Positions 1 through 62,400 of a stretch of DNA of 64,000 nt are shown piece after piece. Each line of letters starts with the position of its first letter. Position 1 is the first letter of the stretch. The translations under genes and the position numbers were made by a program. Below the pieces are notes generated by a model. The model saw only the letters and a list, made by a program, of their open reading frames with translations, was not told the DNA's origin and did no database searches. This stretch comes from Psilocybe cubensis (Eukaryota): contig CM039001.1 of assembly GCA_017499595.2 (NCBI GenBank), forward strand, positions 3,348,001-3,412,000. Direction: 5' to 3'.

Positions 1-773
1 TGGTGTGATTTAAATAATTGTGATCCTTTTGATGATCTTCAAGGGCCTACAATCACTTGATCATAAACTTGCAACGGAGGTTCTGTACTATCCTCGACTT
101 CTTCAAATAGGTCACCATGGTACGAGATTGTCCTTAAGAAGGTTACCATAAAGTTTCCAGCTTCAAACCACCGGTTACGGTTGAAGTATGAGGGTTAGTG
201 AACGCCAAGCAGTAGGCCGGACGGACCGCGGATATCAAAATGACTTATAAGGCAGGCATCATGCATGGATGGTCGAGTAAGCGCCTGTGTTGCATATATC
301 CGAATTTGAGTCTCAAACAAGACAATTAAAAAGCGAATCCTTGAACTTATAGAAAAAAAACGAACTCACCCTAGAGACATTGGAAAGGTAGGACATCCAA
401 ACGTCTGAAGCTACTCCGGACAGGGTTTCGCCATTTTTTGCGTGTTCCTCCGTTGGAAAAGCTTCGAGTTACATGGGAGTGTGTTCAAGTATATAAGAAA
501 AGATGAGCGGCCTTGTCGATAACCCCATACCCCCCAGAGTTTTTTTAACCACCAAATATCATGGGCCGCTGCCTCCGCAAAGTCTAACGATATAGTGCTT
601 ACTTATCGGCCACACTCAACCCCACAAGCAAGACTGAGTCAAATGACTGCATGTAAATTGATCCAGATTCGAGAGTCGTACTGACCCGATTTCTTGCGTC
701 TATAAATCCAATGCGGCCGGAGTGCGGCCGTTTAATTATTTGGTACCACACAACACAGTTAGATTGCAGGCTC

Positions 774-2758
774 TTATGTTCGTTTTACCTGGTATTTTTC
801 CCATCCGACTTCTTTGAGTATTTCAACCTTTCCTAGGACCTCCGCTTCCATTGCTTTCATGTATTGGTCCATTGCTTCAATGAGGCCTGGGATACCGGCG
901 GACAGGATACGCACAGCAAGAAGTCCTGCGTTCATGCCGTTGTTTATGGCCACTGTAGCGACGGGTATACCACGCTAGTTTTTATTCAGGAAGATAGTTA
1001 GTAAAGAGAACCCAAAATTATTTTAAACTTATCGACGTACAGGCATTTGCACAATGCTATGCAAGGAGTCGACACCGTCGAGCGTGCTACCTTTGACAGG
1101 GACGCCAATAACGGGTAGCGCAGTCATAGCTGCTACCATCCCTGGCAGATGAGCAGCGCCGCCGGCTCCCGCAATGATTGTCCGCAGGCCGCGAGTCGAT
1201 GCCGAGCGAGCATAATCGACGAGTCGATCAGGCGTCCGATGCGCCGAGACAATTGTGAGCTCGTATGGGATTTTGAATTGGTCGAGAACGCGCGCGGCGG
1301 GTAGCATGACTGGTAGATCGGAGTCTGAGCCCATAATGATACCCACTAGTGGGTTAGGGTCCGAAAATCCAGAGCCTGGAGTAGCGACAATCGGCGCGTA
1401 ACGATCCACTTCCTCTGAAGTACTTTCAGGTAATGATTCGAGAAGGGGCCGCAGACGGCTTCTCAGCTGTGCATCCGAGTCGGCTACAATGGTGATATGG
1501 CCCATTTTACGTCCCTTTCGGCATTCTGATTTCCCATAGAGATGCACTGAGACACCAGGGATAGTCAAAGCGACATCTACAGTTTTCTGAATTTCTTGCA
1601 TTGACGACGAATATCCTATCAGATTCAGCATCGCAGCTGATGGGACTTTAAGTGCTGTGGAGCCAAGGGGCAACGAGAGAATTGCGCGGAGATGGTTTTC
1701 ATATTGAGATGTTTCACAGGCTTCAATCGTGTAATGGCCGGAGTTATGAGGTCGAGGGGCAATTTCATTGATGAAAATCTTTCCTAAAGAATTGTCACGT
1801 CATCAGGGTTAAGAGGACGGCGAGCAAAACAAAACTAACGCACCATCTTCCATCAAGAACATTTCAACACCAAAGACACCAGCGCCGGAGAAAGACTTAA
1901 CGGCGGTTTCGGCAATGGCTCTTGCTCGTTGTGATAGCGAAGGATCGCGACTGCGAAGCGGTGCGAAAACAAGATGACAGATGTTGTCCTTGTGAACGGT
2001 TTCCACGACGGGGTACGACTGAACTTGCCCATCAACCGCTCTTACTACCATGACCGCAATTTCCTGTTTGAAAGGAACCCATCTTTCAGCGTATAAGGGC
2101 CGGTTATTGAGGAAAGTGATTGCTTCTTGCGCCTGTCCAAGCTCCCGGAGGACAAAGTTGCCACGTCCGTCGTATGCCAACGTACGGCTTTTCAGCATCA
2201 GGGGTAGCCCTAGCTTTCCTGCGACATCGGAGATGGATTCTACGGACGACTCTACAGCCACGAAATCTGATATTGGGAGGCCATGCGAAGATAGATGGAC
2301 CTTTTGTCGATATTTATCTTGAATGATTTCAACAGTCGAAGGGTGGGGATGGACAACCAGTTCCTTATGCTGAAAGGCGGACTGAACTTCTTGGAGCGTT
2401 GCCGTATTTACGTGTTCAATCTCTATTGTAAGAATATCCACTTTGTTGGCTAATTCGCGTATTTTTTCTGGGTTAGCAAAGGATCCGTCGACATGGGACA
2501 GATGAAGTGCGGTAGGCGCAACGATACGTTTAGCGGGTCCGTGATGTCCATCGTCCAGAATAACAACATTCACATTCAAAAGTGAAGCAGATGCTGCCAG
2601 CATTCGACCAAGCTGGCCTCCCCCTATTGAAAATGTTGGTTCTCACATAACCTCAAACGATGAAATCCTGGATAAATGATCGCTATTCAGTACGAATTGA
2701 CTAGAAAAACACAAGTGGACTCACGCGCACCAAGTATTCCAACTACCTTGTCAGACAT
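774..2758 (-). CDS. ADE2: Phosphoribosylaminoimidazole carboxylase (PurK-PurE fusion), multi-exon, copy A
   Basis: Start [10 protein letters not shown] spliced to [11 protein letters not shown]-grasp motifs LAYDGRGN and [11 protein letters not shown]. PurE motifs [18 protein letters not shown] and [13 protein letters not shown]. Last exon ends [10 protein letters not shown] at 774. Confidence 0.96.
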
Positions 2759-4567
2759 TATCGGTTCGAGATGGTGATTAAAAGAGAGATAGCAAATTTT
2801 TGTGGCATTCGTCCATCTAACCCTGATCTAAGGTCACAATTATTTTTAAATTATTAACCCGAAGTGTTGCCGAATCCGAACCTTTACCTTCGTTCAACGT
2901 CATTCATACTGTAGCATATATTTAATGTCCATAGAGAAGAAAGATGGAACTGAAAGGAAAAGTATCCGTTGAAAGAATGGCCTGGTATGATTGCAACATT
3001 TACTTTGCTTGACGTCATCACTGATGTTGAAAACCACTGCTCAGCCTAAAATTGCCTGGAGGCTAACACCAATGGGAGTCTTCCCAAAGCCCTAGGGCAC
3101 ACCCTTGCTCAAAAGCTTCCTAGAACTCCTTGCTTCCTAGAACTCCTTGAAGGCTCTTAATTGACTCTCCTTGGCACTCTTGCCGCATCTTGTTCTCGTT
3201 CATTCACCGTTTCTACTGGCAGTGGAAATATAAGAAGGAAGGGAAGCAATCACTTCATACCGCGAATTCTCAGGTATACGTCCCAGATCAAAATCTCTCC
3301 CTTTTCGGAGAACCTGGACATATTTGCAGTAACAACACCTAAAATGGCTCACAAAATCGTCTCGCGTGTGTTAATTTTCCGTTTTTCGAGAACTAGAGCC
3401 CGGAGGAGGGAGATAAAGCAAAAGAGAACGAGACACTAGAGCCTCCCGATACGAGGTCTGCTGGTACATAACGGTAATGAATCAACAACCCGATTTTCAG
3501 TCAAAAATGATGCTTCGCTTGCGGGACATACATGTTCTAGTTCTTTGTGGATGATTTTACCGCTGAGAGCCGCTGAGGATGTTGCAGAACTCTTCGTGGC
3601 CTGCTAATCCGGATAAATCGGAAAATAAAAGGTCAAGGGGTATCCGAACATCTCAACCAATTGCTCATCGGCGATGTCGAAGCCCAACGTTGGCAGTCAG
3701 GCCGATTCTCCATGTGCAAGAGTAAATTTTCTATCTCCACACCAAAGAAGCGACCGGTTTTCAAGCCTATGAAGTAAATGCTAATTCAACACAAACCGAC
3801 GTATACGAGTTCTTACGTGCTCCGATCGTACCTCATGTTGTGTAGACTAAGAAAAAGCCAATTGTTACTGGCTATGAACACACGCCGGTGATATACGAAA
3901 TTCAAAGGAACCTACTGACCACGCATATGATCTCTGGGCATTAAACGGGTAGACATCTCCTACTATTCCTATACAGCCTGTAATACCTTAAAGGATACCC
4001 GCCTTAAACTCAGCAAGATAGATTTTCCTTCTTCCGAATCCGTTGATAATTATCGCGAATGGCCGGAATCCTCGCAGTGAACATCAGTGAACATTTTCCG
4101 AGGAAAATTTACTGTTTCAACGTGCGCCACCATTTTTTTTAAAAAAGATACCCATGAGCTAATCGGCATCTTGTTTTAGATTGGATGCCCATTGTATTTC
4201 ACCCTTGAAGAGGATACACTGTGACGAGGTTTAACGGTGCCGGTTGTGCCCGTGAGTACTCATGTCCGAATGTCAGCTACTTGGCAACGTAAACATGATA
4301 CATTGCGACAATAAGCTACTCTATTCCGTTGACTTCAAATATCACTATGACTTGGACTCATGAGTGTCTTTTAAGTTGTCACCCAGCCCCTGAACGATGA
4401 CGATGACGCGCGCTTGGTGTGCTAAAAGTCACGTCAAAATCATAAATCACGTGAACATTAATATAATTTGAATTTCAGACTCCGAAAAATCAATCAGCGT
4501 TAGTATGCGATAACGAGTCTTCGTCGTCTCAGAATCCATTCGAACCCTGTTTATTCACTAGTTCATA

Positions 4568-6511
4568 ATGTCGCATCCCATCGCCTTTACACGTCCAGAG
4601 TATGATTGTCAAACGATAGATTCGTCTGGCAGTGCGCAAAACTGGACTTTAGTCAAGGAGCGACTACGTATTTTAAATTGCGGAAAGGACGCGCACGGAT
4701 ACAGCGAATTTTCTGGATTTGGATGTCCTCCTTTAACCCTTGGGAAGAGCGGCGACATTTACCTTGATCTTGACCCTGCATCCATCAATTTGTATGGCCG
4801 CTATACAGACGAATGGAAACTTTGGCCGGGACCTCATTCCCGTGATGACGTTTTGTTACATCCAATCTACCAAAATCGTTGTCTATGGTGCTCTGAGACG
4901 ATTGGGTGGCAAGCTCTCAACCGTGTACAACTTCATCAGGGTGAGAATAAAAAGCTGCTCCCAGTCTATTCTTATCATAACTTCCCCAGATAAGTCTCGA
5001 CAGATTGTCATCGCCAATTCTGCTACGTATGAAGAACATCAGAAATATGTAAAGAAAAGACAAATTCTGGAAACTAATGGTCCAAATCCAAAAAGGTCCA
5101 AGACCACAAAGAGCCCAAATCAATCACAGGCCTCCTCGTCTTGCCAACGTATACCAAAAAATTCTAGTATGTTGTAATTTTATCATATTATACAAACTGA
5201 GAGCGATGGTCCCGAATCGAGCTGTATCATCTCATAGCCAACATCTAGGGCCGACGACCAACTCTCCATCCCGATTTGTTTCAAGTGGCGGTCAACTCAC
5301 CACCGCATCTGTCCGAGTACACATGGCATTTGGTTCTCAAGTCATTGCGAACACATCTGCCGGGCTCCGAAGTCCTATAGCGGAGGGAAACGGCATGGGA
5401 ACCGGAGAAGAACCTAGCAATCTGGTTGCTGACTTTGAAAAACTAAAAGATGTTGCAAACACTGCGGTGTATGGGTTACAGATCGCTCAGCAACAAATTG
5501 ATCGTTTGAAACAAGAAAATGATTTTTTGAGATCAACGCTGGCGCAACTTTCTCAAAATGATAGAAGTCGTGTTCATCACACGCCCCGGGTGGAATCGGC
5601 CCTGACTAGCTTGGATCGCGGTGAGCTTACTAGTGTGGTTAATTTTGCTTGGAGCAAGGGTTTGACGCCATCTCGAAACTTGTTTAATAATCCATTGCCT
5701 TCAGGAACTGAACGTTTGACTGGACAAACACCGGATGTGAACACCGAAGTTCCACCAAACGGTATTTAAAAATCAAAAATTTTCATTTGTATTAATTGAT
5801 TATTGATTAAGATAATGTGCAGGGATACCAGATGATGCAGACTTCCTTAGCGTTAACTCTTCAAGAATATCAGGGAATTGGATTCCAAATGACAGCCTAG
5901 TCCAAATGCAAACATCAGGCGCCCATGCTGTTGAATCAGACCTAGACCATCCACCAAGCTCGCTTCGAGTTGCCGATTCCATGCCTATCGATATTGGCTG
6001 CACAGCTCAGTCTCAAGCTCTCGTCAACGACAAGGAAGCTGCGGATCTACCAATGCCTCCGAGTTCCGTGCACTCTCTGCATAGTTATCGAGTAGAGTCG
6101 GAAACGGAAGACGCACCTGCCGGTGCCGGTATCGGTAAGGTCTAATCTAAGCGCCATCTGGAACACGTGTCAGGAACTTAAAATCGTTATCTAAATTACC
6201 AGAAGCACCTTTGCAGCTGAAGCTGAAGCTTGAACAGGCACATATGTCCATTCTCTATGGACAAGTGGATGATTTTATCGCTTGTAGACTTTGCAGGTGA
6301 GTCAAAAATAATGACTACGTAAACGGAACACATTTATAACAGTTTGTGTCTTAGAGCGCAAGGTAGCCCGATTTTCGAAATAAAAGCAGCCACACAAGAC
6401 TCGAGGAAAGCTATGGAACGACATCTCATTGAAGAGCATCCGGTTGAAGTTGAGACGATGTGTTGTCTGAAGTACGATGATCTCCAACAGCTAAAAGACG
6501 TGATGCTGTGA
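4568..6511 (+). CDS. Hypothetical multi-exon protein with a central coiled-coil-like stretch and a C-terminal CxxC...HxxxxH putative zinc finger, copy A
   Basis: ORFs 4568-4993, 5077-5769 and 5906-6145 can be linked by GT-AG introns. The spliced 3' end reads CRLCRAQGSPIFEIKAATQDSRKAMERHLIEEHP...DVML* (TGA 6509-6511). Internal exon boundaries are approximate. Confidence 0.6.
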
Positions 6512-9500
6512 TTTTCGTTCTGAAATCATACTTGTCCTCCGAATTGATTCTGATTATTTTGATGGGTATAAACGTGGATTTTGACCCTTTGAAATGATTG
6601 TGGGGCTGTGTATACGTGAGATCTTATCAGTTAGTTTTTTACTTGCGCAATCTGTAAGTTTTTAATCTTGGTTCCTACAATATACTGTTATCTGTAAGCA
6701 GTGGGGTCACTTTGCGAATTGAGAGGATATACAAGTGCACGATCTAAAAATACAGTGTCGGGGTGTAAGTCGATAACTCCTCTATGTCGATGGTAGAATG
6801 GCCTCAAGCACAATGATATGATTTCTTCAAATGTATCTGTACTCTGCTCGGGATGGCCAAGAGAAAATCTTGTGGTCGCAAAATTCACGATATCAGAATA
6901 TTTCTATTTTAATTCTATAACAAATGGATCTGGCCAAGATTCCCATCTATCATATTCGCAAACTCGGCCAGATGACCTTGAAGGTGGACGGCCACGATAT
7001 GTCACCACATATCGGTCCGATTCGCGCGGGCAACACACCTTGTCGTCGTTTCCTAAATGTTGAAGTCCGAATGAGGAGGGATTGCTTCATTAGGAACAAA
7101 AGGCCTCAAAGCAGTATAGCGACTATGATGTTATCGTCGGTGGATTAAATGGCTTTAGATGTCCACCGTTGAGTCGGTTTTGATAAGTTTCCATTGTCGG
7201 AACATCTTTTTTTCAATACTCCAAGTAGGTATCTTTGGAGATATACTCTTACAGGGTGCTAACTTTTGCACCCCATGCCGTGCTTCTGTAAATGCTTGAA
7301 TTCTTAATGACAAAAGTAACGGTAGCTAGTTTACAAACCTGTGTATTGAGTTGATGTTTAACAGGAAACGTACCATACAGTTCAGACGGAATATACAGTG
7401 GACGGGGATCAAATGTCGGACATTGTAGAAATCTTTAGGTGTTAAATGACGGCTAATACGAAGATGATAGGTGTCAACATAGAGTTACAGCAAGATATAT
7501 ACATTTTCCTTGTCATAGTTCAATTGTATTTCTTACCTTCAGTTATCAACTACTTGCACAGCCATTTTGTAAATGTTATACCCAAGCACAGATGCCAGAC
7601 CCTCTTCGCAAGCGATTTTTTGTTCGGGACAGCTCTCTTAATCGGTATGGCCTACGGAGGGCACGAAAAATATTCCCAGCTTTATAAATGCCCGTTTAGT
7701 TAGAAATTAATTGCATACAGCCTGTCTGAAAGGCTCAAGCGCCCATTAATATGCTTAGGCCCAGAACTGGGCGCCAAAAGTAGTTTTATTCATTAAAAAT
7801 GTGGAATATCACAAGTAAGTTTGAAAGCTAATCCATAAAGATGGGAAACTATGAGAGGTTACAGGTTACCTTTAGTCATTTTCTGTCGCTGCGGTTAGCT
7901 TCAATCCTACACAATTTTGAAGATGACAACGGGTCATCGACAGATATTGTGACATAGCATCAATTACAGATTTACGATAAAACGGACAACAACTAGGGCG
8001 ACTACCGGAGATATACCTTGAGAACTATTGGAAGAAAAACAGGACTGCGTAGCAATCTCTCAGACGCACAGTTCTGTCATCATCCAACGCTCGCGAATAA
8101 CAAGGGCATATTCCCACGTAAGCCGTGCACTTGGACATTGTGGTATGTTTTGTCTCTAAAAGCACCGTAGTAATCGCTACATTCACTGAAAGGTTAGACA
8201 ACTATCGTATGGGCGAATATGTACCGACCAATTTGACAGCCGATACCAACTTCATGGAGCTTACTGCTTAGAATAGTTTAGTACCTCAGTGGGTTTATCT
8301 CTGTTATCAAGACGCTTTCAAGCAAGTTCTCTGTTAGCTGTCCAGTGTATTTACTAATTGGCGGCGGCAGAACATGCCCTGTCAGCAAAAAGATGAGAAG
8401 TAGTCTGGGAGCCATTCCATACACCTTGCTCTCCAAACACGAAACAACTGCATACCCATATCATTTGGCATGACTATGACAGAGGAGGCTCTAGACCGAG
8501 TCGTGTTCTGGTGTCGAGATTGAAACTAGCGCCACCGCTACAACGACGACTCATTGTAAAGAATGCTCACTTCAGATATGATAAAGACAATTCATAGATC
8601 TAATAGTAGGTAGATACTAGATAAAGAACGAACCAGCTTATTTCAACATGGTTTGCTATTCATATCACTCAGGTTGGCTTGAACATGGTAGAAATATTTA
8701 ATTTATTACTGACACACGGGGCACTGAACTGTGTTTTCTGTAGTCCAGTTTAATTGGTATTTAATTCTGAAAAATTCTGGAGTGCGCTGTTTGCTTAAGC
8801 AGATTGAATTGCTAAGCGCTTGCCGGTGGCCGCGGAAGCACAGATGTAACGCTCTGGCGGTCATCGATCGGAGAAGGTAAGAAAACGGCAAGCAACGGCA
8901 CCGCATGGCACAACAATTGGATCGAGATTGCGGCATCCAGAATTTGAAAAACCCCTGGTACCTCATATGATACCAGCGTGATCGTGCAGACTTGTACATA
9001 CTGGCATTGGCAAGGACGATAGATTCAGAGAGCCGGGGATGAAACCGAATAATGGTGAGGACTTCCGACACTAACATGAATCGGTTATCCGCCATGACCT
9101 ACGGGTACATACTGCTATTGAATATTCAGCAAAGAAATGATACATACATATCTCAGTGCGCTTCCCCTTCCTCCCACACTTGGGAACTAGAGATATAGAT
9201 CAGCTATGGTGGATCACTAGAGTGGTCCACTCACAGCCTAGAAGACCAAACTAGCCTAGTAGCCTACCTACCTAACCTCGCCGGACATATTGTATGATAT
9301 TGGGCATTAGTCAAGCTTCAACGTTCAAAACCAACTATTACTTCAAATTCTACATTTTATGAGAGGATTCACGAAGCTTCGGTGATACACCAAAAAGTGA
9401 GACTATTACCACGAAGCGTACTCCTTTGTCATGATTTAATTTGTAGTAATGACCAGAAATATTATGATGACCCTTGGGCGACCCTGGCTAATAATGATGT

Positions 9501-10556
9501 TTTGATAGAGTCGGTGATTTACAATATAGAATGCAATGTGATCACCCAGTCCGCTGAATAAAAAGCCTAATTTCTGATGTCAATTGTTATCATGATGCAG
9601 CATGATGGCAAAGAAAGGCTATCATTGTTAATCGCTTTAGTGGAGTAGCCAACGAGTGTCAACTTGAAAAAGAGAATCCTTCAGTAAAGTTTACCGTGCC
9701 AGTGAGTTGTGTTTTACCTCGAACTTCTATCTTCAACGGCAGTTTCATGATTTGGGATGTGTATGTAATAATGGTTGATAAATTGAGGTTTTCGCGTAAG
9801 AGGTAACACTAGCATCGCGATATCCAATGAGCGTCTCAGGAATCAGGATCCTTCGATTTGACACTTGTTTCCCGACATCGAATATGTATTATTATTCAAG
9901 CTGTAAAAATCGTCTCGAATAGACAAGAGGCTTTTAAGCGATGTGCATCTAAACACTGCAAGAATGGGGCATGAATTCATTGAATACCGTATTATGGGCA
10001 ACTATCGAGCTGTCACATGGTCCTTATTCGATTCAGTCACCAATTGGCTTTGAGGCGCTAGCGAAAAAAATGATCAAAACGTGTTTAAACCTATAAAGAA
10101 GGTTTATCCCGACTCAAGGGACCAGCCAATGGTTACCCCACACCGCTCAGTTGGCTGTTGACATCGCTATCCGGGAGAATCCGCAGACCTTGTCCAAAAC
10201 GTAGCACCCATTGACTATACACACAATACGTAAGTTAAGAAGGCTGTTCTCTCGCTTCTTCGTATTTCCAGTGGGTGGTATTACATTCGTTGCTGTGGCT
10301 GCAGGGCAAAAATTCAAGCGATTTTTAAATCAAATAAATGGATAGTACAAGTGGAAGGGTCAGACGACGTTGTTCGCGATAAACAATAAAGGCGCGCTAC
10401 AGTGGGTCTGGGTCCAATTTGAATTATTTGACGGAAAACTTTCAGGGCAGTGCCAAAGGCGCATCTGAGAGGTTATGGCGCGCTAAATAAGCCAGAAGTT
10501 ATAAGCGAGTACTTTGAACAATTGTTTGAATGTGATAATACCTTACGCCACCATAT

Positions 10557-11974
10557 TCACCAGTCGGAGAAACCCTGAAATTTACCATCCCAGCTCCACC
10601 ATATCATTTCATCATCTTCCAGATCGAGGCCAGTAGACGACACTGATAATGACTCTCGAAGAAATGCTGAGGGCTGTATACCTTGACGAGTCGTGATCCA
10701 GACCCCTTCTACTTTGGTCTTCTTGGTATGTTTAGGACGATTGATGGATTGGTTTTCAGCAGTCTGCAATCCGGAGTTGTTGAGAAAATCGTGTAAAGAT
10801 GTATCAAGTGAATTGGAGACATTTTGCTGAGGAAGCCAAGCAGGATGACTAAACCGCCTAGGTGCGCGAATAAGAACGTGTGTTTGAGTTGGGGCTAGAA
10901 AATATAGTCAATAAAATGATGACTGTCAAGTAAGAAACGATAAAGATACCATACCCAGTTCAGAACTTATCCCACATCCTTCCGCATCCGCTGCTGCAAG
11001 GGTACGAGAAAGAAGACGTTCGGCTTTCTGTAAAAATTGTAATTCTTCCGCGCGAGATACATAGAGTGGAGGTGGCGGATCTTCTCCGATAGATTTATCG
11101 CCGTTTTCCTCTTCTTCGCTTTCGCTTTCGCTTTCTTCTTCGCTACTGGTTTCTTCACTATCGTCATCCTCACTGTCCTCGGGTATGTCGTCGCTTTCAT
11201 CATTATCTTCAACACTGTCGCCTTCATCTGATTTATCAGCTTGGACATCTTCTCTTTCATCCTCGGCAATTTCGGCGTGATCCCGGGAGATTGTTCGTTC
11301 GTCCCTAACGCCCCAGATACTTTGTTCTAACCCATCAATCCCAAGAAATAATCTAGATTTTGCTGTTGTTACGCTCGGCCCCACGAGAATGGCCAAATGA
11401 ACTTGTGCCAACTTGGAATTCTGGCCAGCACATCGCGCAAGTGCCGTAGATAATGCAGAGAAGGTGGTATCAAGATGGGATGATATAGTGTCGTATGAGG
11501 CCAGTAATTCGGTACGTTGCTTGGCTGCGCGTGTGTTCATCTAGAAACCAAGTCAAGGAAGGTAGTAATATCATATTGGAGATTAACAGACCTTGCCACC
11601 CGGAAGCCTTCCTAATTGCATCACAGGACTAAAAAAGAGAAATCGTTTTATCAATGAAGAGAAATTGTGAAAATAAGTCTTGAAGCTTACAACGGGACCT
11701 GATTCTTCAGGAAGAGTACGTGTCCTAACAAACTTGTAGCCAATCTCCCAGCAGTGGCATCGTTGATTTTTTCAACTTCCAACTTCACTAGAGGGTAGCT
11801 TGAGGACTTTATAGACTCCAACTCTCCCGTATCAATGAGAATACTTTTCTCTGGCACTGGGCACGCTGTTATAGCTGGAACTTCCTGAGCATCGCTCGTC
11901 TTGCATTCGTTGACCGTAATTGATGATTCCACAGTGCCCGTAGAAGGGCCGCTCTTTGGTGTAAGATAAGGCAT
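10557..11974 (-). CDS. Conserved hypothetical protein resembling p31comet/MAD2L1BP (HORMA family) with an acidic insertion, copy A
   Basis: Four exons can be assembled: LATSLLGHVLFLKNQVP / PVMQLGRLPGGK / ...AILVGPSVTTAK...acidic tract / TQTHVLIRAPRRFSHPAWLPQQN...EMIWWSWDGKFQGFSDW*. The gene itself is well supported; the family call is from recalled motif similarity only. Confidence 0.7.
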
Positions 11975-12583
11975 CTCAACGTGAACCTTTCAAGAATTAG
12001 ACACCTGCGGCGATGGAATATATAGTTGTGGGTTGTGCTGAGAGTGCTTCCAGAAATCAACCACTGTCGGCGTTAGTGTCACGTCGCGTCATCACAACAA
12101 ATTTATATCACGTGTCCGTGGTTGTGAATCGATTTTGGTTGATGAAACCTTCATGAATAAACATTGTTTTCAAACCACGAAGTCGTAAAGCAAGACATCG
12201 ACCTAGCAGTCAGTAAATATCCACGTATTCCAATTTTTTTATCGATTTAAACCTCTTAATAGTGTGCATGCATCTCGAAACCCGAGACGACCTCATTGCC
12301 CCTATTTTCATGGAATACCAAACGTATCATTGCTATCACAAAATGAATATGCCGTGTGCGCTTCATCTTGACTTGCGATTTGCGTTTCGCTTAGGCCTTC
12401 GGTCTTGACGGTTGAATACAGGCCTCAGGTCAGCTCTCCGCGCTCACAAATTTTACAACTATGTTGTTTATTCTATTCCTCGTACTTAAGTCCTCGTCTT
12501 TCCCACATGATTGTCCCCATAGAATTGAACATCAAGGCGGACTATATTTTACTAAGTTTCTGATTCTGTCTTCATTAAACCTA

Positions 12584-16030: not shown

Positions 16031-16636
16031 TCCATGATCATGAGGCATCCAATGTCTACCACCCTTTGTAATTGTCCATAGCGTGTACTGTACCAGTTCC
16101 TATCAGTTCCTCCTCGCCTGTTGAAGTTACCCATCCAACATCATCCTAACTACACCGACTATAACCTGCTATAAATCGACACGTCACCAGCAACAACCAC
16201 CTGTATTCTTCCATCACGACCCACTACGATAACCCACCGCCTCACGCTGACGATTTCCGATTGACTCCGCAAACTTTCTTGTGCTTTGTACAATTTTCAC
16301 AATTTCCAACCTTTCCAACCTTTTTCAACTCAGCATCATTATTTGTCCAGTAATTTGTAATTGTACACCCCAACCTTTTGATCTCAGTCCAAATGCTTTA
16401 TCACATTTTCCCCGCAGCATCCTATCGCCCTGACTCCTGATATTCTGTGCAATGCTTTTTACGTCGCTGTCCGCTGTACTTACTTATCTACAGTAGTTTA
16501 TGATCTAACTTGTACCGTATGTAACGAATCCCAGAACACCTGTTCCCGTTGATGACTTCACAATCTTGCTACGATTCCACGCACCGTCGGGCTAGAAGGA
16601 CATCAAATATTTAAATATTCAATAATGTACAATGGG

Positions 16637-33570: not shown

Positions 33571-34804
<1,234 letters not shown>

Positions 34805-34916
34805 GGGTTTTAGGGGCACATACGACAACATTGTATTTCCATCATATACCAATCGAACATTTATAGCATTTCAGACATCCTTTGGCCAAAACAATTTAGG
34901 AAACCGTGTGTTTTTC

Positions 34917-51500: not shown

Positions 51501-52597
51501 TATTATGATGACCCTTGGGCGACCCTGGCTAATAATGATGTTTTGATAGAGTCGGTGATTTACAATATAGAATGCAATGTGATCACCCAGTCCGCTGAAT
51601 AAAAAGCCTAATTTCTGATGTCAATTGTTATCATGATGCAGCATGATGGCAAAGAAAGGCTATCATTGTTAATCGCTTTAGTGGAGTAGCCAACGAGTGT
51701 CAACTTGAAAAAGAGAATCCTTCAGTAAAGTTTACCGTGCCAGTGAGTTGTGTTTTACCTCGAACTTCTATCTTCAACGGCAGTTTCATGATTTGGGATG
51801 TGTATGTAATAATGGTTGATAAATTGAGGTTTTCGCGTAAGAGGTAACACTAGCATCGCGATATCCAATGAGCGTCTCAGGAATCAGGATCCTTCGATTT
51901 GACACTTGTTTCCCGACATCGAATATGTATTATTATTCAAGCTGTAAAAATCGTCTCGAATAGACAAGAGGCTTTTAAGCGATGTGCATCTAAACACTGC
52001 AAGAATGGGGCATGAATTCATTGAATACCGTATTATGGGCAACTATCGAGCTGTCACATGGTCCTTATTCGATTCAGTCACCAATTGGCTTTGAGGCGCT
52101 AGCGAAAAAAATGATCAAAACGTGTTTAAACCTATAAAGAAGGTTTATCCCGACTCAAGGGACCAGCCAATGGTTACCCCACACCGCTCAGTTGGCTGTT
52201 GACATCGCTATCCGGGAGAATCCGCAGACCTTGTCCAAAACGTAGCACCCATTGACTATACACACAATACGTAAGTTAAGAAGGCTGTTCTCTCGCTTCT
52301 TCGTATTTCCAGTGGGTGGTATTACATTCGTTGCTGTGGCTGCAGGGCAAAAATTCAAGCGATTTTTAAATCAAATAAATGGATAGTACAAGTGGAAGGG
52401 TCAGACGACGTTGTTCGCGATAAACAATAAAGGCGCGCTACAGTGGGTCTGGGTCCAATTTGAATTATTTGACGGAAAACTTTCAGGGCAGTGCCAAAGG
52501 CGCATCTGAGAGGTTATGGCGCGCTAAATAAGCCAGAAGTTATAAGCGAGTACTTTGAACAATTGTTTGAATGTGATAATACCTTACGCCACCATAT

Positions 52598-54015
52598 TCA
52601 CCAGTCGGAGAAACCCTGAAATTTACCATCCCAGCTCCACCATATCATTTCATCATCTTCCAGATCGAGGCCAGTAGACGACACTGATAATGACTCTCGA
52701 AGAAATGCTGAGGGCTGTATACCTTGACGAGTCGTGATCCAGACCCCTTCTACTTTGGTCTTCTTGGTATGTTTAGGACGATTGATGGATTGGTTTTCAG
52801 CAGTCTGCAATCCGGAGTTGTTGAGAAAATCGTGTAAAGATGTATCAAGTGAATTGGAGACATTTTGCTGAGGAAGCCAAGCAGGATGACTAAACCGCCT
52901 AGGTGCGCGAATAAGAACGTGTGTTTGAGTTGGGGCTAGAAAATATAGTCAATAAAATGATGACTGTCAAGTAAGAAACGATAAAGATACCATACCCAGT
53001 TCAGAACTTATCCCACATCCTTCCGCATCCGCTGCTGCAAGGGTACGAGAAAGAAGACGTTCGGCTTTCTGTAAAAATTGTAATTCTTCCGCGCGAGATA
53101 CATAGAGTGGAGGTGGCGGATCTTCTCCGATAGATTTATCGCCGTTTTCCTCTTCTTCGCTTTCGCTTTCGCTTTCTTCTTCGCTACTGGTTTCTTCACT
53201 ATCGTCATCCTCACTGTCCTCGGGTATGTCGTCGCTTTCATCATTATCTTCAACACTGTCGCCTTCATCTGATTTATCAGCTTGGACATCTTCTCTTTCA
53301 TCCTCGGCAATTTCGGCGTGATCCCGGGAGATTGTTCGTTCGTCCCTAACGCCCCAGATACTTTGTTCTAACCCATCAATCCCAAGAAATAATCTAGATT
53401 TTGCTGTTGTTACGCTCGGCCCCACGAGAATGGCCAAATGAACTTGTGCCAACTTGGAATTCTGGCCAGCACATCGCGCAAGTGCCGTAGATAATGCAGA
53501 GAAGGTGGTATCAAGATGGGATGATATAGTGTCGTATGAGGCCAGTAATTCGGTACGTTGCTTGGCTGCGCGTGTGTTCATCTAGAAACCAAGTCAAGGA
53601 AGGTAGTAATATCATATTGGAGATTAACAGACCTTGCCACCCGGAAGCCTTCCTAATTGCATCACAGGACTAAAAAAGAGAAATCGTTTTATCAATGAAG
53701 AGAAATTGTGAAAATAAGTCTTGAAGCTTACAACGGGACCTGATTCTTCAGGAAGAGTACGTGTCCTAACAAACTTGTAGCCAATCTCCCAGCAGTGGCA
53801 TCGTTGATTTTTTCAACTTCCAACTTCACTAGAGGGTAGCTTGAGGACTTTATAGACTCCAACTCTCCCGTATCAATGAGAATACTTTTCTCTGGCACTG
53901 GGCACGCTGTTATAGCTGGAACTTCCTGAGCATCGCTCGTCTTGCATTCGTTGACCGTAATTGATGATTCCACAGTGCCCGTAGAAGGGCCGCTCTTTGG
54001 TGTAAGATAAGGCAT
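52598..54015 (-). CDS. p31comet/MAD2L1BP-like hypothetical protein, copy B
   Basis: Same as 10557-11974. Confidence 0.7.
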
Positions 54016-54622
54016 CTCAACGTGAACCTTTCAAGAATTAGACACCTGCGGCGATGGAATATATAGTTGTGGGTTGTGCTGAGAGTGCTTCCAGAAATCA
54101 ACCACTGTCGGCGTTAGTGTCACGTCGCGTCATCACAACAAATTTATATCACGTGTCCGTGGTTGTGAATCGATTTTGGTTGATGAAACCTTCATGAATA
54201 AACATTGTTTTCAAACCACGAAGTCGTAAAGCAAGACATCGACCTAGCAGTCAGTAAATATCCACGTATTCCAATTTTTTTATCGATTTAAACCTCTTAA
54301 TAGTGTGCATGCATCTCGAAACCCGAGACGACCTCATTGCCCCTATTTTCATGGAATACCAAACGTATCATTGCTATCACAAAATGAATATGCCGTGTGC
54401 GCTTCATCTTGACTTGCGATTTGCGTTTCGCTTAGGCCTTCGGTCTTGACGGTTGAATACAGGCCTCAGGTCAGCTCTCCGCGCTCACAAATTTTACAAC
54501 TATGTTGTTTATTCTATTCCTCGTACTTAAGTCCTCGTCTTTCCCACATGATTGTCCCCATAGAATTGAACATCAAGGCGGACTATATTTTACTAAGTTT
54601 CTGATTCTGTCTTCATTAAACC

Positions 54623-54624
54623 TA
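54623..54624. other. Empty TA target site of the MITE
   Basis: Reads ttcattaaaccTActgatgttg, versus TA-[592 bp]-TA in copy A. Confidence 0.95.
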
Positions 54625-56383
54625 CTGATGTTGTACGCGGCCCATCTTGAAACAGGACAACGATTTTCAAAAAATACTTGATCAAATTCTAATATATTGG
54701 TATGATGCGATTTGATTAAGTTGACAAGGTATGATACTTTCGGATTCGATTATGCTGCATCAGCACGCTAATCCTAAGTGCTCCTAGATATTGCTTCAAG
54801 AAAATTAAATCAAGTGACGTAGCAATAGGCGGGGCTCCCCCACCCCAGACCATTTATCGTGCATACCCCGCGGCGGAAGTGTTCCGACATCGGAGGATGA
54901 CAATTGATATAGTTCACTTTTACGGGTTTGTTTAACATCGTGTGCGATTTTTCTAATTCTTATGGCGTCTACTTTTCTGGGTATAGAACACATCATGCCA
55001 TAGACACATTATTATGATGTCCCGAATGTGTGTTATCGTCGAGTAACGATAGCATTGCTGTTCCAAACGGCAGGCCTATCTCAAGCCACACTGCCGCATA
55101 CATCGGATTGTACCTGCTAGCCGCTAGAACGCCACGAGGAGTTATTCAAGCGGCTGTCCCCTCGGTCAATGATGTGCAAGGCTGGTGGTTGGCTGGTAGT
55201 ACCCATTTCCTCCAAAAGGTAGGAGTCATACTCTGTGAATTTTTACTGCGAGCAGGTAAACCCAGCTATAGCATCTTAGCAAATATCCAAAGCGCATACC
55301 TTTCAGTAACGAAGCGTTTAGGCTATCATCGCTGCCGCCTTCTGCCGCATTGAAGTGTGGGTTGCCGTATTAGTATTGTACCTGGAAAGGAGAATCTGCC
55401 ATTCGATTTGTTGTTTATTGTGGACCAAACGCTGGTAAGTATGAGCAGAATTTTATGATCGGCTTGTGTGTACAACCTCCACCGTTTTATGTCAGGTGTA
55501 TACCCACATCAGTCTTAGGAAGCGATTCCATTACTTCCCACTACAATTGCAAGGCGTGCGTGACACACCTCCAAGATTCAATTTCACTATTGTCAACATT
55601 CATTGGCTCATTATGCTTTTAAAGGACAATGGATCAACGGTGGATATATCTAGCTGGCAATGATTGGACGGAAATAGCTGATGTTGTCAGACCCATGTGC
55701 ACGGCCAGACATGGTCAATGATCAAACATAGTTCAGAGCTGTCCACAAACATTGACACTGTGGTCCTCCCTGTGAGTTCCGAGTAGAGGCTAGCCCTCGT
55801 CATAACGCGATATGTCATAGCGGACAACTGTGGAAACCGCCGTCTGGTATCGCCCCTTTTCCCATATTCAATCATCCTTTTCCGAGAGAAGCATCCAACG
55901 AAGTGGTCATATCATCATTCAGACAAAGTTGCCCAGACATCAGCTTCTTTCTAATCTCGTCTTTGATCAAGCCCCATCAAATCAGGTCTGAATGGATCTG
56001 CAATGTGCACCTTTTTCGTCGACCACTAAGTTTAGTCACGTTCCGCGACATACCCCCGAGAGGCTACAGCATCATAGGGACGGCTTCTTTCTCTCAAGTT
56101 TCCGGTGGCACACATGAGCATCCCCACGCCCTGTATGTTACGTAGGGATACCGAGATCTCAGATTTTGTGGCTAATCTTTTCTGTGTTTTTTTATCGCGA
56201 ACCTTACCGATCGCTTTTCAAATAGGTCCACATTCGTCTTACGGATGAGTGCCCCCGATTGACCCAACTGGATTGTTCCCATAAATGTCCTAGGGACAAA
56301 CTCGTGGCTTTTCTCTTAAGAGCTTGACGAGACCAGCCAATGTGGTCGCCAACCTCCAATTTTCTACCCTCCTCCAATCCCCC

Positions 56384-57477
56384 ATGCCTTCTCCTCTCCT
56401 CTCTCGCCTAGGCAGCTCGATGCAGGCCACATCGTCAAGGCTAGGATACCATGCCTACACTATCTTCCTTTTCACTAAGTCGGACATCAAGACAACATTG
56501 ATTCCCGTGGTATGCGCGTCTCTTTTATTTTATTCCTCATTGATTTACCATTGATGGTTCAATTTTAGGGCTGCTTTGCTCTCGGTGCCGCCCCGCTCTC
56601 CCCCACTAATTCATTATCCCACGCCGTGCAAGCCATATTTTGGCTATGGCTACACCTCCTTCATTTCAATCTTGCGAATCAAGTACATGATCCAGAGGAG
56701 GACATGATCAACAAGCCATGGCGACCCATTCCCACCGGTCGTATCACTCTTGCACAGGCAACCGTTCTCCGATATCTTGCGCCATTCGTATGCATGGCAG
56801 TCTCGTTACTCTATAGCCGTGCAGTGTTCTATGCTGCATTAATCTTTGCTATTCTCGTCCCCATTTACCATGAAGCGAAGGGTGACTCCCACTGGCTCTC
56901 TCGCAACTTCATGAATGCCTTTGGATATGCATGTTTCTCGACAGGCTCAACTTTGATTGCATGTTAGAGTCTTTCATCAAACTTTGTTTATTTTCGTCAT
57001 CGCTAACTTTCTCTCCTTTTAGCACCAAACAGAGCGCAGCTCGATGTTCCGGGGGCGCTGTCAATATTTACCATTACAGCTATCCTAGCTACGACTATTC
57101 AGGCCCAAGACTTCCAGGATGTCATCGGCGACATTAAAACAGGAAGATTGACATTGCCGATAGCCTTTCCCAATTTTTCTCGATATACTCCTATGGTGTC
57201 CCTTCTTCTCTGGGTACCTTATTTGACTTCTGTCTGGGAGATCGGCACTGTTGGAACCATTGCCTTCACGGTTCTGACCATTATCGTTGGTCTGAGGTAT
57301 CTCCTTCTCAGATCAACGAAGGACGATCAATTATCTTACGTCTGGTACAATGTGAGTAGACAATTTTTATTCCATTCTTGTTCTCGATGTTGAACCTTTT
57401 GATTCAAGGTTTGGCTTGCCATTGCATTCTCCATGCCTGGATACTGGCGTTACTACAAGGAATCCGCTGCCCTGTAA
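56384..57477 (+). CDS. UbiA-superfamily prenyltransferase / candidate terpene cyclase, copy B
   Basis: Same as 14937-16030. Confidence 0.88.
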
Positions 57478-58083
57478 TCCATGATCATGAGGCATCCAAT
57501 GTCTACCACCCTTTGTAATTGTCCATAGCGTGTACTGTACCAGTTCCTATCAGTTCCTCCTCGCCTGTTGAAGTTACCCATCCAACATCATCCTAACTAC
57601 ACCGACTATAACCTGCTATAAATCGACACGTCACCAGCAACAACCACCTGTATTCTTCCATCACGACCCACTACGATAACCCACCGCCTCACGCTGACGA
57701 TTTCCGATTGACTCCGCAAACTTTCTTGTGCTTTGTACAATTTTCACAATTTCCAACCTTTCCAACCTTTTTCAACTCAGCATCATTATTTGTCCAGTAA
57801 TTTGTAATTGTACACCCCAACCTTTTGATCTCAGTCCAAATGCTTTATCACATTTTCCCCGCAGCATCCTATCGCCCTGACTCCTGATATTCTGTGCAAT
57901 GCTTTTTACGTCGCTGTCCGCTGTACTTACTTATCTACAGTAGTTTATGATCTAACTTGTACCGTATGTAACGAATCCCAGAACACCTGTTCCCGTTGAT
58001 GACTTCACAATCTTGCTACGATTCCACGCACCGTCGGGCTAGAAGGACATCAAATATTTAAATATTCAATAATGTACAATGGG

Positions 58084-59286
58084 AGGACCCCTGACAATAG
58101 GCCCAGAGGACGTTCCCGAAAAAGGTCGATTTTTGGGTTTTTTGTCCGTCGCGATTTTCAAAATTTCTGTCCGGATATAGAACGACCTACCAATTTTTTC
58201 AAAAATTTGTCCGGAAATCGGGAACAACCCTCGGGAGGCCCAATTTGTGTCCGGACAGGCCTAAAAATCGATTTTTTCGCCGCTGCGCGCGTTCAGCTGA
58301 GTTCAGTCGCAAATGGGACGCTTCAGAACAATGTTAAGAATCACTGTAATAAAAAAAAAACCTGCCTAGTACAATACAAAACCATAAAACGAGTATGCGA
58401 TGCAAAAAAAGCTATGTACTACTATCTAGGTTTCGCTTTGCAAACATTTTCATCGCTTTTTTGATGCTCCCTACTCCCTCAACCAATGTCTTGTAAAGCG
58501 AAATATCTTGCGCATGAACTTCAAAACCTGCTGCAGTGACAGACAAGGGTTTATGATAGAGGAGGGTGAGTAACTTGCAGGAAGGCAGGTGTGCAAATTC
58601 AGATACATTGAGCAAGGCAGTTTTGGTGGGTCTTGCAGTGAAGTAGAGGCCATGACTGTGCTCGAAGACTTGAAAAGATGCTTTTGAAAGGGCACAGACA
58701 TTGGTAGTAGTCGCAACCGGCTGGTTTCGTGAGTGCTTTCCGTTTGGTTTCTCACTCAAAGCAATGACTAAAGTACGGCGTGATCATTAGTCACTACATC
58801 GAAACAGCTCCAACTGATAGTCCACTTTACCTTTGCCAATCTGAATCCTATCATCAAGAAAAAGGAACTACAATTGAATGTGTGATGCAGAAAATCTATG
58901 TAATAATATCTAAATTTCGCTTTGCAAACATTTTCATTGCCTTTTTTATTCTCTTGAACTATGGGTTTACTAAGGGCAAAATACTAAAAAGGCGATATTG
59001 AGATTAGAAACAACGACGTAGTATCACAATACGAAGGGCGGGAGCGACTACACGCTCAGCCTCTATACTAACCGATGACTTATATTTTGAGGGTCGTTGA
59101 TCACGATATATGTCCGGTTTTTGGATCGACCTCGGCGGTCCTGCAACTTTTCTGTCCGGATTTTTGGAACGACATTTTGCTCAAAATCTGGGATTTCTGT
59201 CCGGTTTCGGAACGTCCGAAGGGGTCGATTTTCAAAATTTTTGTCCGTCCGACGGAACGTCCTCTGGGCCTATTGTCAGGGGTCCT
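58084..59286. mobile_element. 1203-bp TIR element with 8-bp TSD, copy B
   Basis: Same TIRs and ACAATGGG TSD as 16637-17839. Confidence 0.93.
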
Positions 59287-59487
59287 ACAATGGGCTTGTC
59301 GTAGCACGTCAATTATCAGCTGATTCCGGCGCTATTTAATTTTGGCCATGCAATTGAAAATAACAGGCTATGAAATGCTTATATACAAATGGTATCAATT
59401 AAGAAGGATTCTAAAGGAATAGAAGTAAAATAGGGCGCCAGTAGCCTCCAAGAATACAATACATGTAAAAGAAATTTGAAGGGAAAA

Positions 59488-62400
59488 TTACTTCTTGACA
59501 GGGGCTTTCTTCTTCTTTGGCGCTTTGATAAGAGAGTCTTTGGTTATATCTTCATCTAGGTCCTTGTTCTTCTCATCCTCTGAAACGTCATCTATCACAT
59601 CATCAACCTATAATGACAACGTGGCCAGTCAGAAACGTGGAATCATGCATGTTCTATAACCTACGAAGGCCTCTTCCAGGTCTGGGGCTGGGCCACCGGC
59701 AAGTTTCTTCGGAACCTTTCCTAAGTCTTGCGCTTTATGGAACGGTATAGGATGTTCGGAGGCGTTGTACCTTTATTAGATCACCAATTAGTCATCGAAA
59801 AAAATTAGCGCCCCTTGGTACACACTTTCGCGTCAAGGCTGTCTTTGTGGCCGTCGAAATTTTCTTCATGATAACATCGTCTTTCTTTTCGTCAACGCCC
59901 AGTTCGATAATAGTATCCCAGTCTTCTTTCGAAATGTAATATTCATCCATACGCTCAATGACTTCATCGACAGCACTCTGCCAGGATGTGGTTAACTGTT
60001 GACCTTTTTTTTTTTTGGGAGGATAGACTAAAGACGAGATACTCACAACACCTTCGTCCATGAGTGGTTTGACCATGTATGGGAACAAGGATGGAATATA
60101 TGATTGTCTGATCTCGGTTTTATCGCCTGATACTTTCAGTCGCATTCGGATTTGAACGTCGCCTAGTTGTCGGGCGAGTTTGTTCTGTTTCGAATTTTGG
60201 CCAAGCCACCTAATTAATAATTAAGCGCCTTGCACAACCAACACATCAGGAAAACGATTGAAAACATACTGAGGGAATGACATCGCATTTGGGCCTCCAT
60301 AACCTGCACCGTTTCCGTATAGGTTATATGTAGGGGTGACGGTAGAGCAAATCGCATGCAACGGCATCAGTCCCCAATGTTGTTCAGGCCTGAGTGAATA
60401 TCGACGATTACATCAGTTATTAAGCATTCACTTGCCTCGTGTTAAGAAGAGTAAAATGCACGCACCCGTGAATCAATGCGTCCACAAGATCTCCGTCTGA
60501 GATGGACGAAGCGGCGCGATCCATTAGCTGAAGTTCTCTCAAAATTTTCTCTGGCCCTTCAAGATTACGAATCCGAGCAGGTTCTGTTTTCAGATAATTT
60601 TCCTACCGATCCGTGAATACACCTCCGCGGATAACGTACGACGAATACTTCATACCTGGATGAATAAAGGAACAAATGAATGATCCTGGAAATAATAATC
60701 CATTTTGTCTCCCAAAGTTTCTCGTGAAGTCGGTGAGTAGACATATGGGCCTAATAGTTTTGAGGTGATGTCAAAAGGACTTAAAATAGAGTACTTCTGA
60801 TTCATCTTGGCACTAAAACGGGGACGCATGACAGTCTTGCTTTGTAGTGATAAGCGCACGGCGGAATAGAGTTACTCACAGGTCTTTTCCCTCGTCGAAG
60901 TCCATGGTGTCACTCGACAATTTCCATGTTGAGAGCATGTTGAGTACTTGGCGAATATCTGATTGTGCCCCATTGATGAGTTGGTCAATAACGTTGGCGG
61001 GTATTTTCATCTTCTCCCTTCGGAAGAATAAGAATCAAGCCATGAGGTAATTGATGACTTGTCACTTACTTGAAAGCGATGGTAAGAATTCTTGATCGTA
61101 TCGATTGCGCGGGAGGCCTTGAAACGAGTAATACTCAGTGATACATAAGCGTTTAATTATATTTTCAGACATACTTGTGAAAGGGGAGGCTAAAGGTCGT
61201 AGCCATCAAGGGCTTTAGCTTTTGCGCCTGGCGATCATTGGCAATGCAGATGATAGGAATCTGCTAGAAAATTAAGTCCGCTGACCTAAGAATTAGGCAA
61301 CGGTGCGGACCTTGGTTTTCTTAATCAAAGCGTTCAATGCCCCGACACCTCCACGGTCTCCAGCAGACATTCCGTCAACTTCGTCCATGATGAGACAAGA
61401 TTTGTCTGTAATCAAGACACCTAGGGAATTGGTTTCCTTAATGGAAAGATAAGCAACTGCAACTTCAAGAAAAATTGGCCGAGTTTACCGAAGCTCCTTT
61501 TACGAATCCGTCAAGCGATGTGTTGTTGATGTTCATGCCATTCTGTCGTCACGAGTCAGCTTGTTCGATTGACCTGTTGCGGTATAAAGCCTTACCTCGA
61601 CAAGCTTCTTACTGCGTGTATCGCTGGCATTCATTTCGATTGGGGTGAAGCCCTCAAGCTTCGCGCACAAGTGGGCACTAGTAGTCTTCCCGATTCCAGG
61701 GGGTCCCGTTATGAGAACCGCCCGATATAGATTCAAACCGTTCTTTCCAGGCTTCTTAAAACCACACTTTAAACTTGTGGGCCTGTGAAGATAACCATGT
61801 GAGTGAATGATGATGTTGTGGAGCGGGAAAAAAAATCCGTACCAGTCGTGCAGCCATTGCTGCAACTTTTCGACCTGGCCCTTGTTCCCACAAATGTCCT
61901 TCAGATTTTGAGGTGCATACCTGACAGTCCACAACTGTGTTTTGGGATCCACAACCCTCCCGCTCTGAGCCTCTGCCCGCTCCTTCTTTTCTCTCGACTC
62001 CATTTCCTTAGCTGCCCTCTTGATGTCCTCTTGTTCTTTTTCCAGTTTCTTTTTCGTTTTCTCGTCCACTTTGCCGTTGCCGAGCCCCTTGCGCGTTCCG
62101 ATCATATGCAAGAACTCATCTTCGTTAAGGGTTTTGATTCCGTGCTTCTTGATGGCATTAAGTTTGCTCGGACCTGCATTGTCGCCTAGCACAACATAAT
62201 CCGTTTTACTGGAGGGTTGCATTACAACGCGACTGGGTCATTCAAGACATTAGCAATATATCTTGAGGGAGAAAGGACGATCACTCACGCGCCAAAGCGC
62301 TTTCCCAAATCAATGGCTTCTTCGCGGGAGAAGCTACTCAATTCTCCGGTGAAAACAAGGGATAGCCCTGCGAGCGCATCGGGCGCGCCATCAGGGACCT

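What the first reader, a model, noticed from the sequence alone, without database searches (positions are those of the whole stretch)
1..61320. Two near-identical copies of one chromosome segment, one telomere-capped: candidate linear chromosome fragment, nucleus-specific fission or haplotig
Seen: 1-19873 equals 42042-61320 apart from one MITE. The contig holding copy B begins with a telomere, yet it is scaffolded behind copy A across a 100-N gap. A telomere in this orientation cannot be internal, so the tandem arrangement is probably a scaffolding join of two alternative molecules. The MITE difference argues that both molecules exist. The lack of visible SNPs argues against two diverged dikaryon haplotypes and for recent clonal or somatic divergence. 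Inference: the mycelium may carry an intact chromosome plus a broken-and-healed version starting in FBA1. If telomere-capped gene-internal ends recur across the genome, that would indicate an undescribed fragmentation or linear-amplicon system; one case cannot show this.
Basis: partly seen in the sequence, partly recalled or inferred. Interest (0 to 1): 0.8.

Follow-up and report, generated by a model that had tools for sequence, protein, structure and literature searches.

The report
Folded-back chromosome arm with new telomere
The apparent side-by-side duplication is an assembly layout, but it probably marks a real accident in this mushroom strain: a chromosome tip fused to its own copy, broke inside a core sugar-metabolism gene and got a new telomere, leaving about 0.76 million bases doubled back on themselves.

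Summary
Observation confirmed. Copies A and B overlap by 41 kb (A starts 21.9 kb left of the window, with intact FBA1). They have no SNPs, differing by one active MITE and five homopolymer indels that look like consensus errors. B's telomere joins FBA1 coding sequence directly.

The tandem layout is a scaffold join. New evidence changes the interpretation. The probable centromere lies left of the break, so B alone would be acentric. The scaffold's right end lacks a telomere and folds back on itself: gap-free junction, 24-kb mirror arms, the only such end of 22 surveyed.

One event explains all three: end-to-end fusion, dicentric bridge, break in FBA1, telomere healing. That gives one chromosome with a ~757-kb terminal inverted duplication, mostly collapsed by the assembler (confidence 0.55).

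Read depth and junction reads were not available. Four public runs cross the site with intact FBA1 and show no junction. No second gene-internal capped end was found, so a fragmentation system is unsupported. The mechanism (breakage-fusion-bridge plus healing) is known. The scan earlier noted a similar capped gene beside a gap in Naegleria, without a fold-back.

The parts
1..19873 (+). In-window part of copy A. The whole copy is C4:3326136-3367873, starting 21.9 kb left of the window, continuous with the left of the chromosome, FBA1 intact. It ends as a plain contig end inside RFC1. The candidate centromere lies further left, outside the window (C4:2819580-2941157).
   Evidence: centromere proxy 14 of 22 C4 hits
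12584..13175 (.). MITE, 592 bp, TA target duplication, 28-bp terminal inverted repeat (27 of 28 match), longest stop-free frame 72 aa; present in A only
   Evidence: all 40 scored candidates (of 75) gave a full-length copy listed at 100% identity, on 12 of C1-C13
19874..19973 (.). 100-N scaffold gap; the only gap in C4:3258001-3522000
19974..20175 (+). Telomere, about 28 CCCTAAA units, in chromosome-start orientation, joined to FBA1 with no subtelomeric retroelement between. G-strand junction reads native GTGTGGGT, then TGG TTAGGG, then regular repeats.
20176..21515 (-). Truncated class II fructose-bisphosphate aldolase (FBA1): reads DPRVWVG-stop and lacks the last 24 codons present in A (gene start approximate, read from the sequence)
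20176..61320 (+). Copy B (C4:3368176-3409320). It continues rightwards as single-copy assembly towards the fold-back at the scaffold's right end, outside the window (C4:4101634-4150895: mirror arms about 24 kb each, 1.2-kb spacer, gap-free blunt junction at 4126876/7 inside a telomeric retroelement repeat, no telomere).
   Evidence: fold-back
33074..36245 (.). Five single-base homopolymer indels between A and B. The one at 36245 frameshifts a P450-like exon in B. Short-read contigs match neither copy throughout, so these are read as consensus errors.
54623..54624 (.). Empty TA site of the MITE in B

Best explanation
One breakage-fusion-bridge round, ended by telomere healing. (1) The right end of C4 lost its cap inside its stack of telomeric Penelope-like retroelements (inferred). 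(2) It fused end to end with its sister chromatid, or an identical homolog, leaving a fold-back with a 1.2-kb spacer (fold shown in the assembly; cause inferred). (3) The dicentric broke in FBA1, about 0.4 Mb distal to the second centromere (inferred). (4) Telomere repeats were added at a GGGT/TGAGGGT seed (junction shown; enzyme inferred). The surviving chromosome reads: left telomere, centromere, intact FBA1 (A), 759 kb outward, fold, 757 kb back, cut FBA1 (B), new telomere; about 4.84 Mb. The window's telomere is then C4's missing right telomere. It keeps every gene, so it is viable. The assembler collapsed about 692 kb of the identical arms, left forks of 41 kb here and 24 kb at the fold, and the scaffolder put the two contigs in tandem. 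One MITE inserted into one arm, or one sub-clone, afterwards.
For: A and B have 0 SNPs in 41 kb. FBA1 occurs twice only, intact and cut, with no reciprocal left piece. The candidate centromere is left of the break, so a free B would be acentric. C4 has no long telomere array at its right end. That end is mirrored: three element pairs share one mirror sum, as do a 300-bp probe at 100% and a 6.4-kb exact stretch; a Copia fragment with only these two near-identical copies fits within 5 bases. Of 22 chromosome ends in the 100 listed of 142 matches, only C4-right has both orientations. The inner arms differ by 8 substitutions and 8 gap bases, and 80 of 162 right-arm-specific 21-mers occur in other element copies, unlike a single folded read. 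A seed of 4 or more bases occurs at 2.4% of sites and an in-register 6/7 repeat at 0.6%; both together at 0.024%, a post hoc test. The predicted product matches the description in PMC3463808 (passages).
Against: No read depth and no junction-spanning read were seen. In 4 of 4 runs laid, one contig crosses the break with intact FBA1 and no telomeric loose end; two of those match A exactly over 10 kb. Contigs drop rare variants, so this is weak, but it is no support. Continuity from B to the fold is unchecked: C4:3522001-4101633 was not read and may hold gaps. The mirror was sampled, not aligned end to end. The centromere is a transposon-cluster proxy only. Unplaced contigs C14, C15, C16, C18 and C19 carry element stacks, four with long telomeres; one could be a normal C4 right end. 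Both copies carry consensus errors in one 3-kb stretch, which suggests thin read support. The three junction bases TGG are neither native nor canonical repeat.
Confidence: 0.55

Rival explanations
1. Rare healed molecules from a small sector of the culture seeded contig B. The 41-kb overlap is an ordinary false duplication at a contig boundary, helped by a mosaic MITE. The fold-back is real or artefactual but unrelated.
For: Errors in both copies. No junction in 4 of 4 runs. De novo telomeres seen in a few raw reads of cultured fungi are described (PMC8381367 passages). False duplications at contig boundaries are common (PMC8081667 passages).
Against: Needs two rare anomalies on the same one of 26 arms, in compatible orientation. 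The telomere caps the centromere-less side. B has no difference from A over the first 12.9 kb.
Confidence: 0.2
2. A separate telomere-capped, centromere-less piece (0.78 Mb linear, or a 1.5-Mb palindrome closed by the fold) lives beside an intact chromosome in some or all nuclei. This is closest to the first reader's idea.
For: Same sequence evidence as the best explanation. Telomere-capped chromosomes without centromeres are reported in the basidiomycete Tremella fuciformis (PMC10696834 passages). Unplaced telomere-bearing contigs could hold the normal right end.
Against: Acentric pieces are usually lost (established knowledge). No normal C4 right end was identified: the Copia fragment next to the stack has no copy on C14-C21. 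It needs more events.
Confidence: 0.15
3. Pure artefact: a chimeric read joined a telomere to FBA1, and another made the fold.
For: No junction in 4 of 4 runs. The odd TGG TTAGGG junction occurs at only 2 other places, both element-telomere joins on C3 (3 matches in all).
Against: The join sits at a telomere-like seed in register with the array. The fold has a spacer and variant inner arms. Two independent chimeras on one arm are unlikely.
Confidence: 0.07
4. A true tandem duplication with an interstitial telomere, or a programmed fragmentation or linear-amplicon system.
For: Long interstitial arrays exist in fungi (PMC8381367 passages) and once in this assembly, at C7:3093390.
Against: The A-telomere join is a 100-N gap and A stops mid-RFC1 exactly where B runs on. 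No second gene-internal capped contig start among 176 of 180 placed matches.
Confidence: 0.03

Closest known systems
Breakage-fusion-bridge after sister-chromatid fusion, ended by a new telomere (McClintock; PMC3463808, passages seen)
   Same: Telomere loss, fold-back inverted repeat at the end, break elsewhere on the arm, stabilisation by a new telomere.
   Different: Here the fusion lies inside a telomeric retroelement repeat and the cap is added directly inside a housekeeping gene. Copy number and continuity are not shown.
De novo telomere healing in fungi: Cryptococcus hybrids (PMC7846113), Zymoseptoria tritici (bioRxiv 10.1101/304915), Pyricularia (PMC8381367); passages seen
   Same: Repeats added at an internal break; tolerated when another copy covers the lost genes.
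   Different: In the passages read, caps mostly end a shortened chromosome. Here the cap faces away from the probable centromere and is paired with a distal fold-back.
Zymoseptoria tritici chromosome 17 inverted duplications (PMC12962880, passages seen)
   Same: Enlarged fungal chromosome with an inverted second copy of an arm and one centromere.
   Different: Attributed there to ectopic recombination between transposons on an accessory chromosome. Here it is a gene-dense core arm with a blunt end-to-end junction and a new telomere.
False duplications at contig boundaries (VGP, PMC8081667, passages seen)
   Same: Two overlapping contig ends laid end to end across a gap, with differing consensus errors.
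   Different: One of the ends is telomere-capped inside a gene, which overlap alone does not produce.
MoTeR-driven telomere destabilisation in Magnaporthe (PMC7367193, listing and start of abstract only)
   Same: Telomere-resident retroelements associated with unstable ends.
   Different: Different element class; a causal role of the Coprina-like elements here is untested.

Membership tests
BFB terminal inverted duplication | Native telomere missing at the end that fused | tested here: met
   No array of 16 or more units at C4-right; last 1.5 kb has none; no repeats at the fold junction
BFB terminal inverted duplication | Fold-back inverted repeat with a short spacer | tested here: met
   Mirror exact over 4118429-4124861, near-exact to 4125660, spacer 1.2 kb, no gap; sampled out to the scaffold end
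BFB terminal inverted duplication | Single centromere outside the duplicated arm | tested here: inconclusive
   Proxy only: 14 of 22 C4 LTR-RT hits at 2.82-2.94 Mb, left of the break; Copia-rich centromeres reported in Ganoderma (PMC10817607 passages)
BFB terminal inverted duplication | New telomere capping the returning arm, in the matching orientation | tested here: met
   CCCTAAA array precedes B on the + strand
BFB terminal inverted duplication | Doubled copy number across the whole arm | not testable with these tools
   Only contig-level depth, one figure per contig
BFB terminal inverted duplication | Fold and new telomere on the same molecule as the centromere | not testable with these tools
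   Needs Hi-C, ultra-long reads or a pulsed-field gel; C4:3522001-4101633 not read
De novo telomere addition | Repeats joined directly to unique DNA at a short G/T-rich seed, no subtelomere | tested here: met
   three junction bases are non-canonical
De novo telomere addition | Several independent reads carry the junction | tested here: inconclusive
   0 of 4 runs show it, but they are contigs and may not be the source DNA
False duplication at a contig boundary | End-to-end overlap across a scaffold gap with consensus-quality differences | tested here: met
False duplication at a contig boundary | Combined depth of the two copies equals single-copy depth | not testable with these tools
   no raw reads of the source DNA
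Programmed fragmentation / linear amplicon system | Recurrent telomere-capped internal ends | tested here: not met
   1 case; 176 of 180 matches placed, arrays under 16 perfect units not surveyed
MITE (Tc1/mariner-type target, label recalled) | Short, non-coding, terminal inverted repeats, TA duplication, many copies | tested here: met

The most novel reading that the evidence does not exclude
The Coprina-like retroelement stacks that build this mushroom's chromosome ends make them fusion-prone and drive a recurring fuse-break-heal cycle. The C4 fold inside an element repeat and the C7 element-plus-telomere joined to an ABC-family gene would be two products in one genome. FBA1's 3' end would be a preferred break site (two runs switch haplotype within 3 kb of it), and the strain would stably carry a 757-kb inverted duplication of a core arm.
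Probability: 0.2. Interest if true: 0.7.

Novelty: new member of a known kind. Interest (0 to 1): 0.42.

Why it matters
If right, both junctions of one breakage-fusion-bridge event are preserved at base resolution in a gilled mushroom; my four searches nearest the topic listed no such case in Agaricomycetes, though the library lacks most subscription journals and I saw only listings. The sequenced strain would carry a hidden double dose of about 757 kb, which bears on expression, crosses and spore viability. Either way the assembly needs correcting: 41 kb of genes are annotated twice, one FBA1 is spuriously or truly truncated, and the telomere is misplaced. The case also gives a general check: an orphan internal telomere should be read together with the same arm's far end.

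Tried and rejected
A 19.8-kb genome search listed neither the self-match nor copy A, so it was not used; a 1-kb query was used for copy number. Contig depth is one figure per contig and cannot show a step. The five indels were first read as errors in B only; anchor offsets in three runs show a mix, with at least one error in A and two in B. A C4 right-end centromere was considered and rejected: the end is subtelomeric and the LTR cluster lies at 2.82-2.94 Mb. An element-made inverted pLTR (PMC8557442 passages) was rejected as the sole cause of the fold, because the mirror spans several elements and a Copia fragment over 24 kb. A single folded read was judged unlikely because of the spacer and variant inner arms. 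Retroelement-templated healing was considered from the TGG TTAGGG match to C3; it rests on 3 bases with no flanking homology and is left open. Two paper searches on homozygosity in the species named by earlier scan notes gave nothing relevant, so an inbred dikaryon with identical nuclei is neither shown nor excluded. The 1187-aa element ORF had no Pfam hit. The whole genome and most of the arm could not be read, which leaves gaps and arm continuity open. No supplements were read; they may hold further fungal healing cases.
Full report
Observation. The window is G000:C4:3348001-3412000 (header); C4 is 4,150,895 bp. Self-alignment gives two exact blocks, 1-12583 = 42042-54624 and 13176-19873 = 54623-61320, and one 100-N gap at 19874-19973. 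A (CCCTAAA)x28 array follows the gap. With 90 kb fetched to the left and 110 kb to the right, the overlap extends 21.9 kb left of the window: A is 41,738 bp and B 41,145 bp. There is no other gap in those 264 kb. A stops inside RFC1 exactly where B continues, so the tandem order comes from the scaffold join.

Differences between the copies. There are no SNPs in 41 kb. The MITE is 592 bp with a TA duplication and a 28-bp inverted repeat; B has a clean empty site. All 40 scored candidates, of 75, gave a full-length copy listed at 100% identity, so the family is young. Contigs of runs X1, X2 and X4 run 3.1-3.5 kb past the site, which implies an empty allele there (inference, since short-read contigs should not cross a high-copy element). 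Five homopolymer indels lie within 3.17 kb (chance about 1.7e-4 if uniform). One frameshifts a P450-like exon in B (family read from motifs, no Pfam hit). Anchor offsets in three runs equal A after the first two indels and are one base shorter after all five, which fits only the short allele at the last three: one error in A and two in B. They are therefore not haplotype markers, and the MITE is not phased with the telomere 34.4 kb away.

The junction. B cuts the class II aldolase after DPRVWV and loses 24 codons, most of which align with solved aldolases. FBA1 has two copies in the assembly, intact and cut. On the G strand the native sequence ends in GGGT, and three bases later has TGAGGGT in register with the array. 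Such seeds occur at 2.4% and 0.6% of 148,302 sampled sites, and together at 0.024% (post hoc). This fits homology-guided addition better than blunt ligation. The bases TGG are unexplained; the same motif occurs at 2 other places, both on C3 at element-telomere joins.

Independent runs. Nine runs from three studies hold the stretch. I laid 4 of 12 listed runs, all from one study and all possibly the source, on the 10 kb around the intact site. In 4 of 4, one contig crosses it with intact FBA1 and no telomeric loose end. This shows that the intact allele exists; the tool warns that contigs do not show absence.

Centromere. Gypsy RNase H (138 matches) and Copia RT (152 matches, 150 listed) profiles show, by eye, one main cluster on each of C1-C13 (weak on C6). 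On C4, 14 of 22 hits lie at 2.82-2.94 Mb, about 0.4 Mb left of the break. Copia-rich centromeres are reported for Ganoderma (PMC10817607, passages). By this proxy the telomere caps the centromere-less side.

The far end. C4 has a left telomere but none on the right. Its last 49 kb is a fold-back. Three pairs of element copies share the mirror sum 8,252,529 (40 of 227 candidates scored). A 300-bp probe matches its mirror at 100%. The mirror is exact over 4118429-4124861 and near-exact to 4125660, followed by a 1.2-kb spacer and a gap-free junction at 4126876/7 with no telomere repeats and no microhomology. The scaffold ends 24 kb into the returning arm. The inner arms differ by 8 substitutions and 8 gap bases; 80 of 162 right-specific 21-mers occur in other copies held. 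In an orientation survey (100 of 142 matches listed), 21 of 22 chromosome ends have one orientation and only C4-right has both. The stack's ORF carries a YIDD reverse-transcriptase motif; the Coprina-like label comes from earlier scan notes and the clade description in PMC8557442 (passages), not from a tree.

Model. Sister fusion after telomere loss gives inverted repeats at the end of one daughter chromosome and a deletion in the other, until a new telomere is gained (PMC3463808, passages). Applied here, A and B are the two arms of a 757-kb inverted duplication and the window's telomere is C4's right telomere. The chromosome would be about 4.84 Mb, with about 692 kb collapsed in the assembly. 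The reciprocal product would lack FBA1's front part, ADE2-like and RFC1 genes and is absent. Shown: both junctions, the identity, the missing telomere. Inferred: that they belong to one molecule, the centromere position, the order of events and the share of nuclei. A fresh MITE insertion in culture has a precedent in Marasmius monokaryons, where transposons were active and insertions mosaic (PMC9674265, passages).

Recurrence. The 16-unit search gave 180 matches (100 listed); the 20-unit search gave 90, all listed. Together they place 176 of the 180; four on C10-C21 are unplaced. Non-terminal arrays are this one, C6:7399 (subtelomeric) and C7:3093396 (interstitial, no gap). A fragmentation system is not supported.

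Known cases. De novo telomeres at internal breaks: Cryptococcus (PMC7846113), Zymoseptoria (10.1101/304915), Pyricularia (PMC8381367). Inverted arm duplication: Zymoseptoria (PMC12962880). Acentric capped chromosomes: Tremella (PMC10696834). False duplications: PMC8081667. All were seen as search passages only, without supplements; PMC7367193 only as a listing. Earlier scan notes name this genome Psilocybe cubensis; I did not check that.

Verdict. It is a new member of a known kind. Interest 0.42: a clean, cheaply testable case with consequences for this reference, but no new mechanism shown.

Noticed in passing
L061:890-1021 (G000:C7:3093390-3093521): About 19 TTTAGGG units lie 430 kb inside C7, between a truncated telomeric retroelement RT (296 of 296 aa identical to the C4 element) and the 3' flank of an ABC-family gene, with no gap in the 1.8 kb read. 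It looks like a chromosome end joined to unique DNA, or a misjoin.
   Followed up: partly
L015:5218-8136 (G000:C4:3323218-3326136): Runs X2 and X4 differ from A by 110 substitutions and 11 indels in this 10-kb locus (last indel at 5218) but hold 0.99 of the words right of the break and show no net indel against X1 over the next 18 kb. Their haplotype seems to switch within 3 kb of the break; the last variant site was not shown.
   Followed up: partly
window 12584-13175: A very young MITE family: 40 of 40 scored candidates full length and listed at 100% identity, all flanked by TA. Its transposase was not sought.
   Followed up: partly
G000:C14, C15, C16, C18, C19: Five unplaced contigs carry telomeric retroelement stacks, four with long telomere arrays; they may be missing or alternative chromosome ends.
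   Followed up: no
G000:C2:2200959-2253546 and C4:2865987-2880155: Copia RT copies recur at regular 4.7-kb (C2) and 4.5-kb (C4) spacing inside the candidate centromeres: tandem retrotransposon arrays.
   Followed up: no
G000:C6:7399-7524: An 18-unit telomere array 7.4 kb from the contig start.
   Followed up: no
window 20166-20185; L062:113-130; L063:112-130: The non-canonical junction TGG TTAGGG equals the element-telomere join on C3. The true join may instead be at native TGAGGGT, which has the same length and register.
   Followed up: partly
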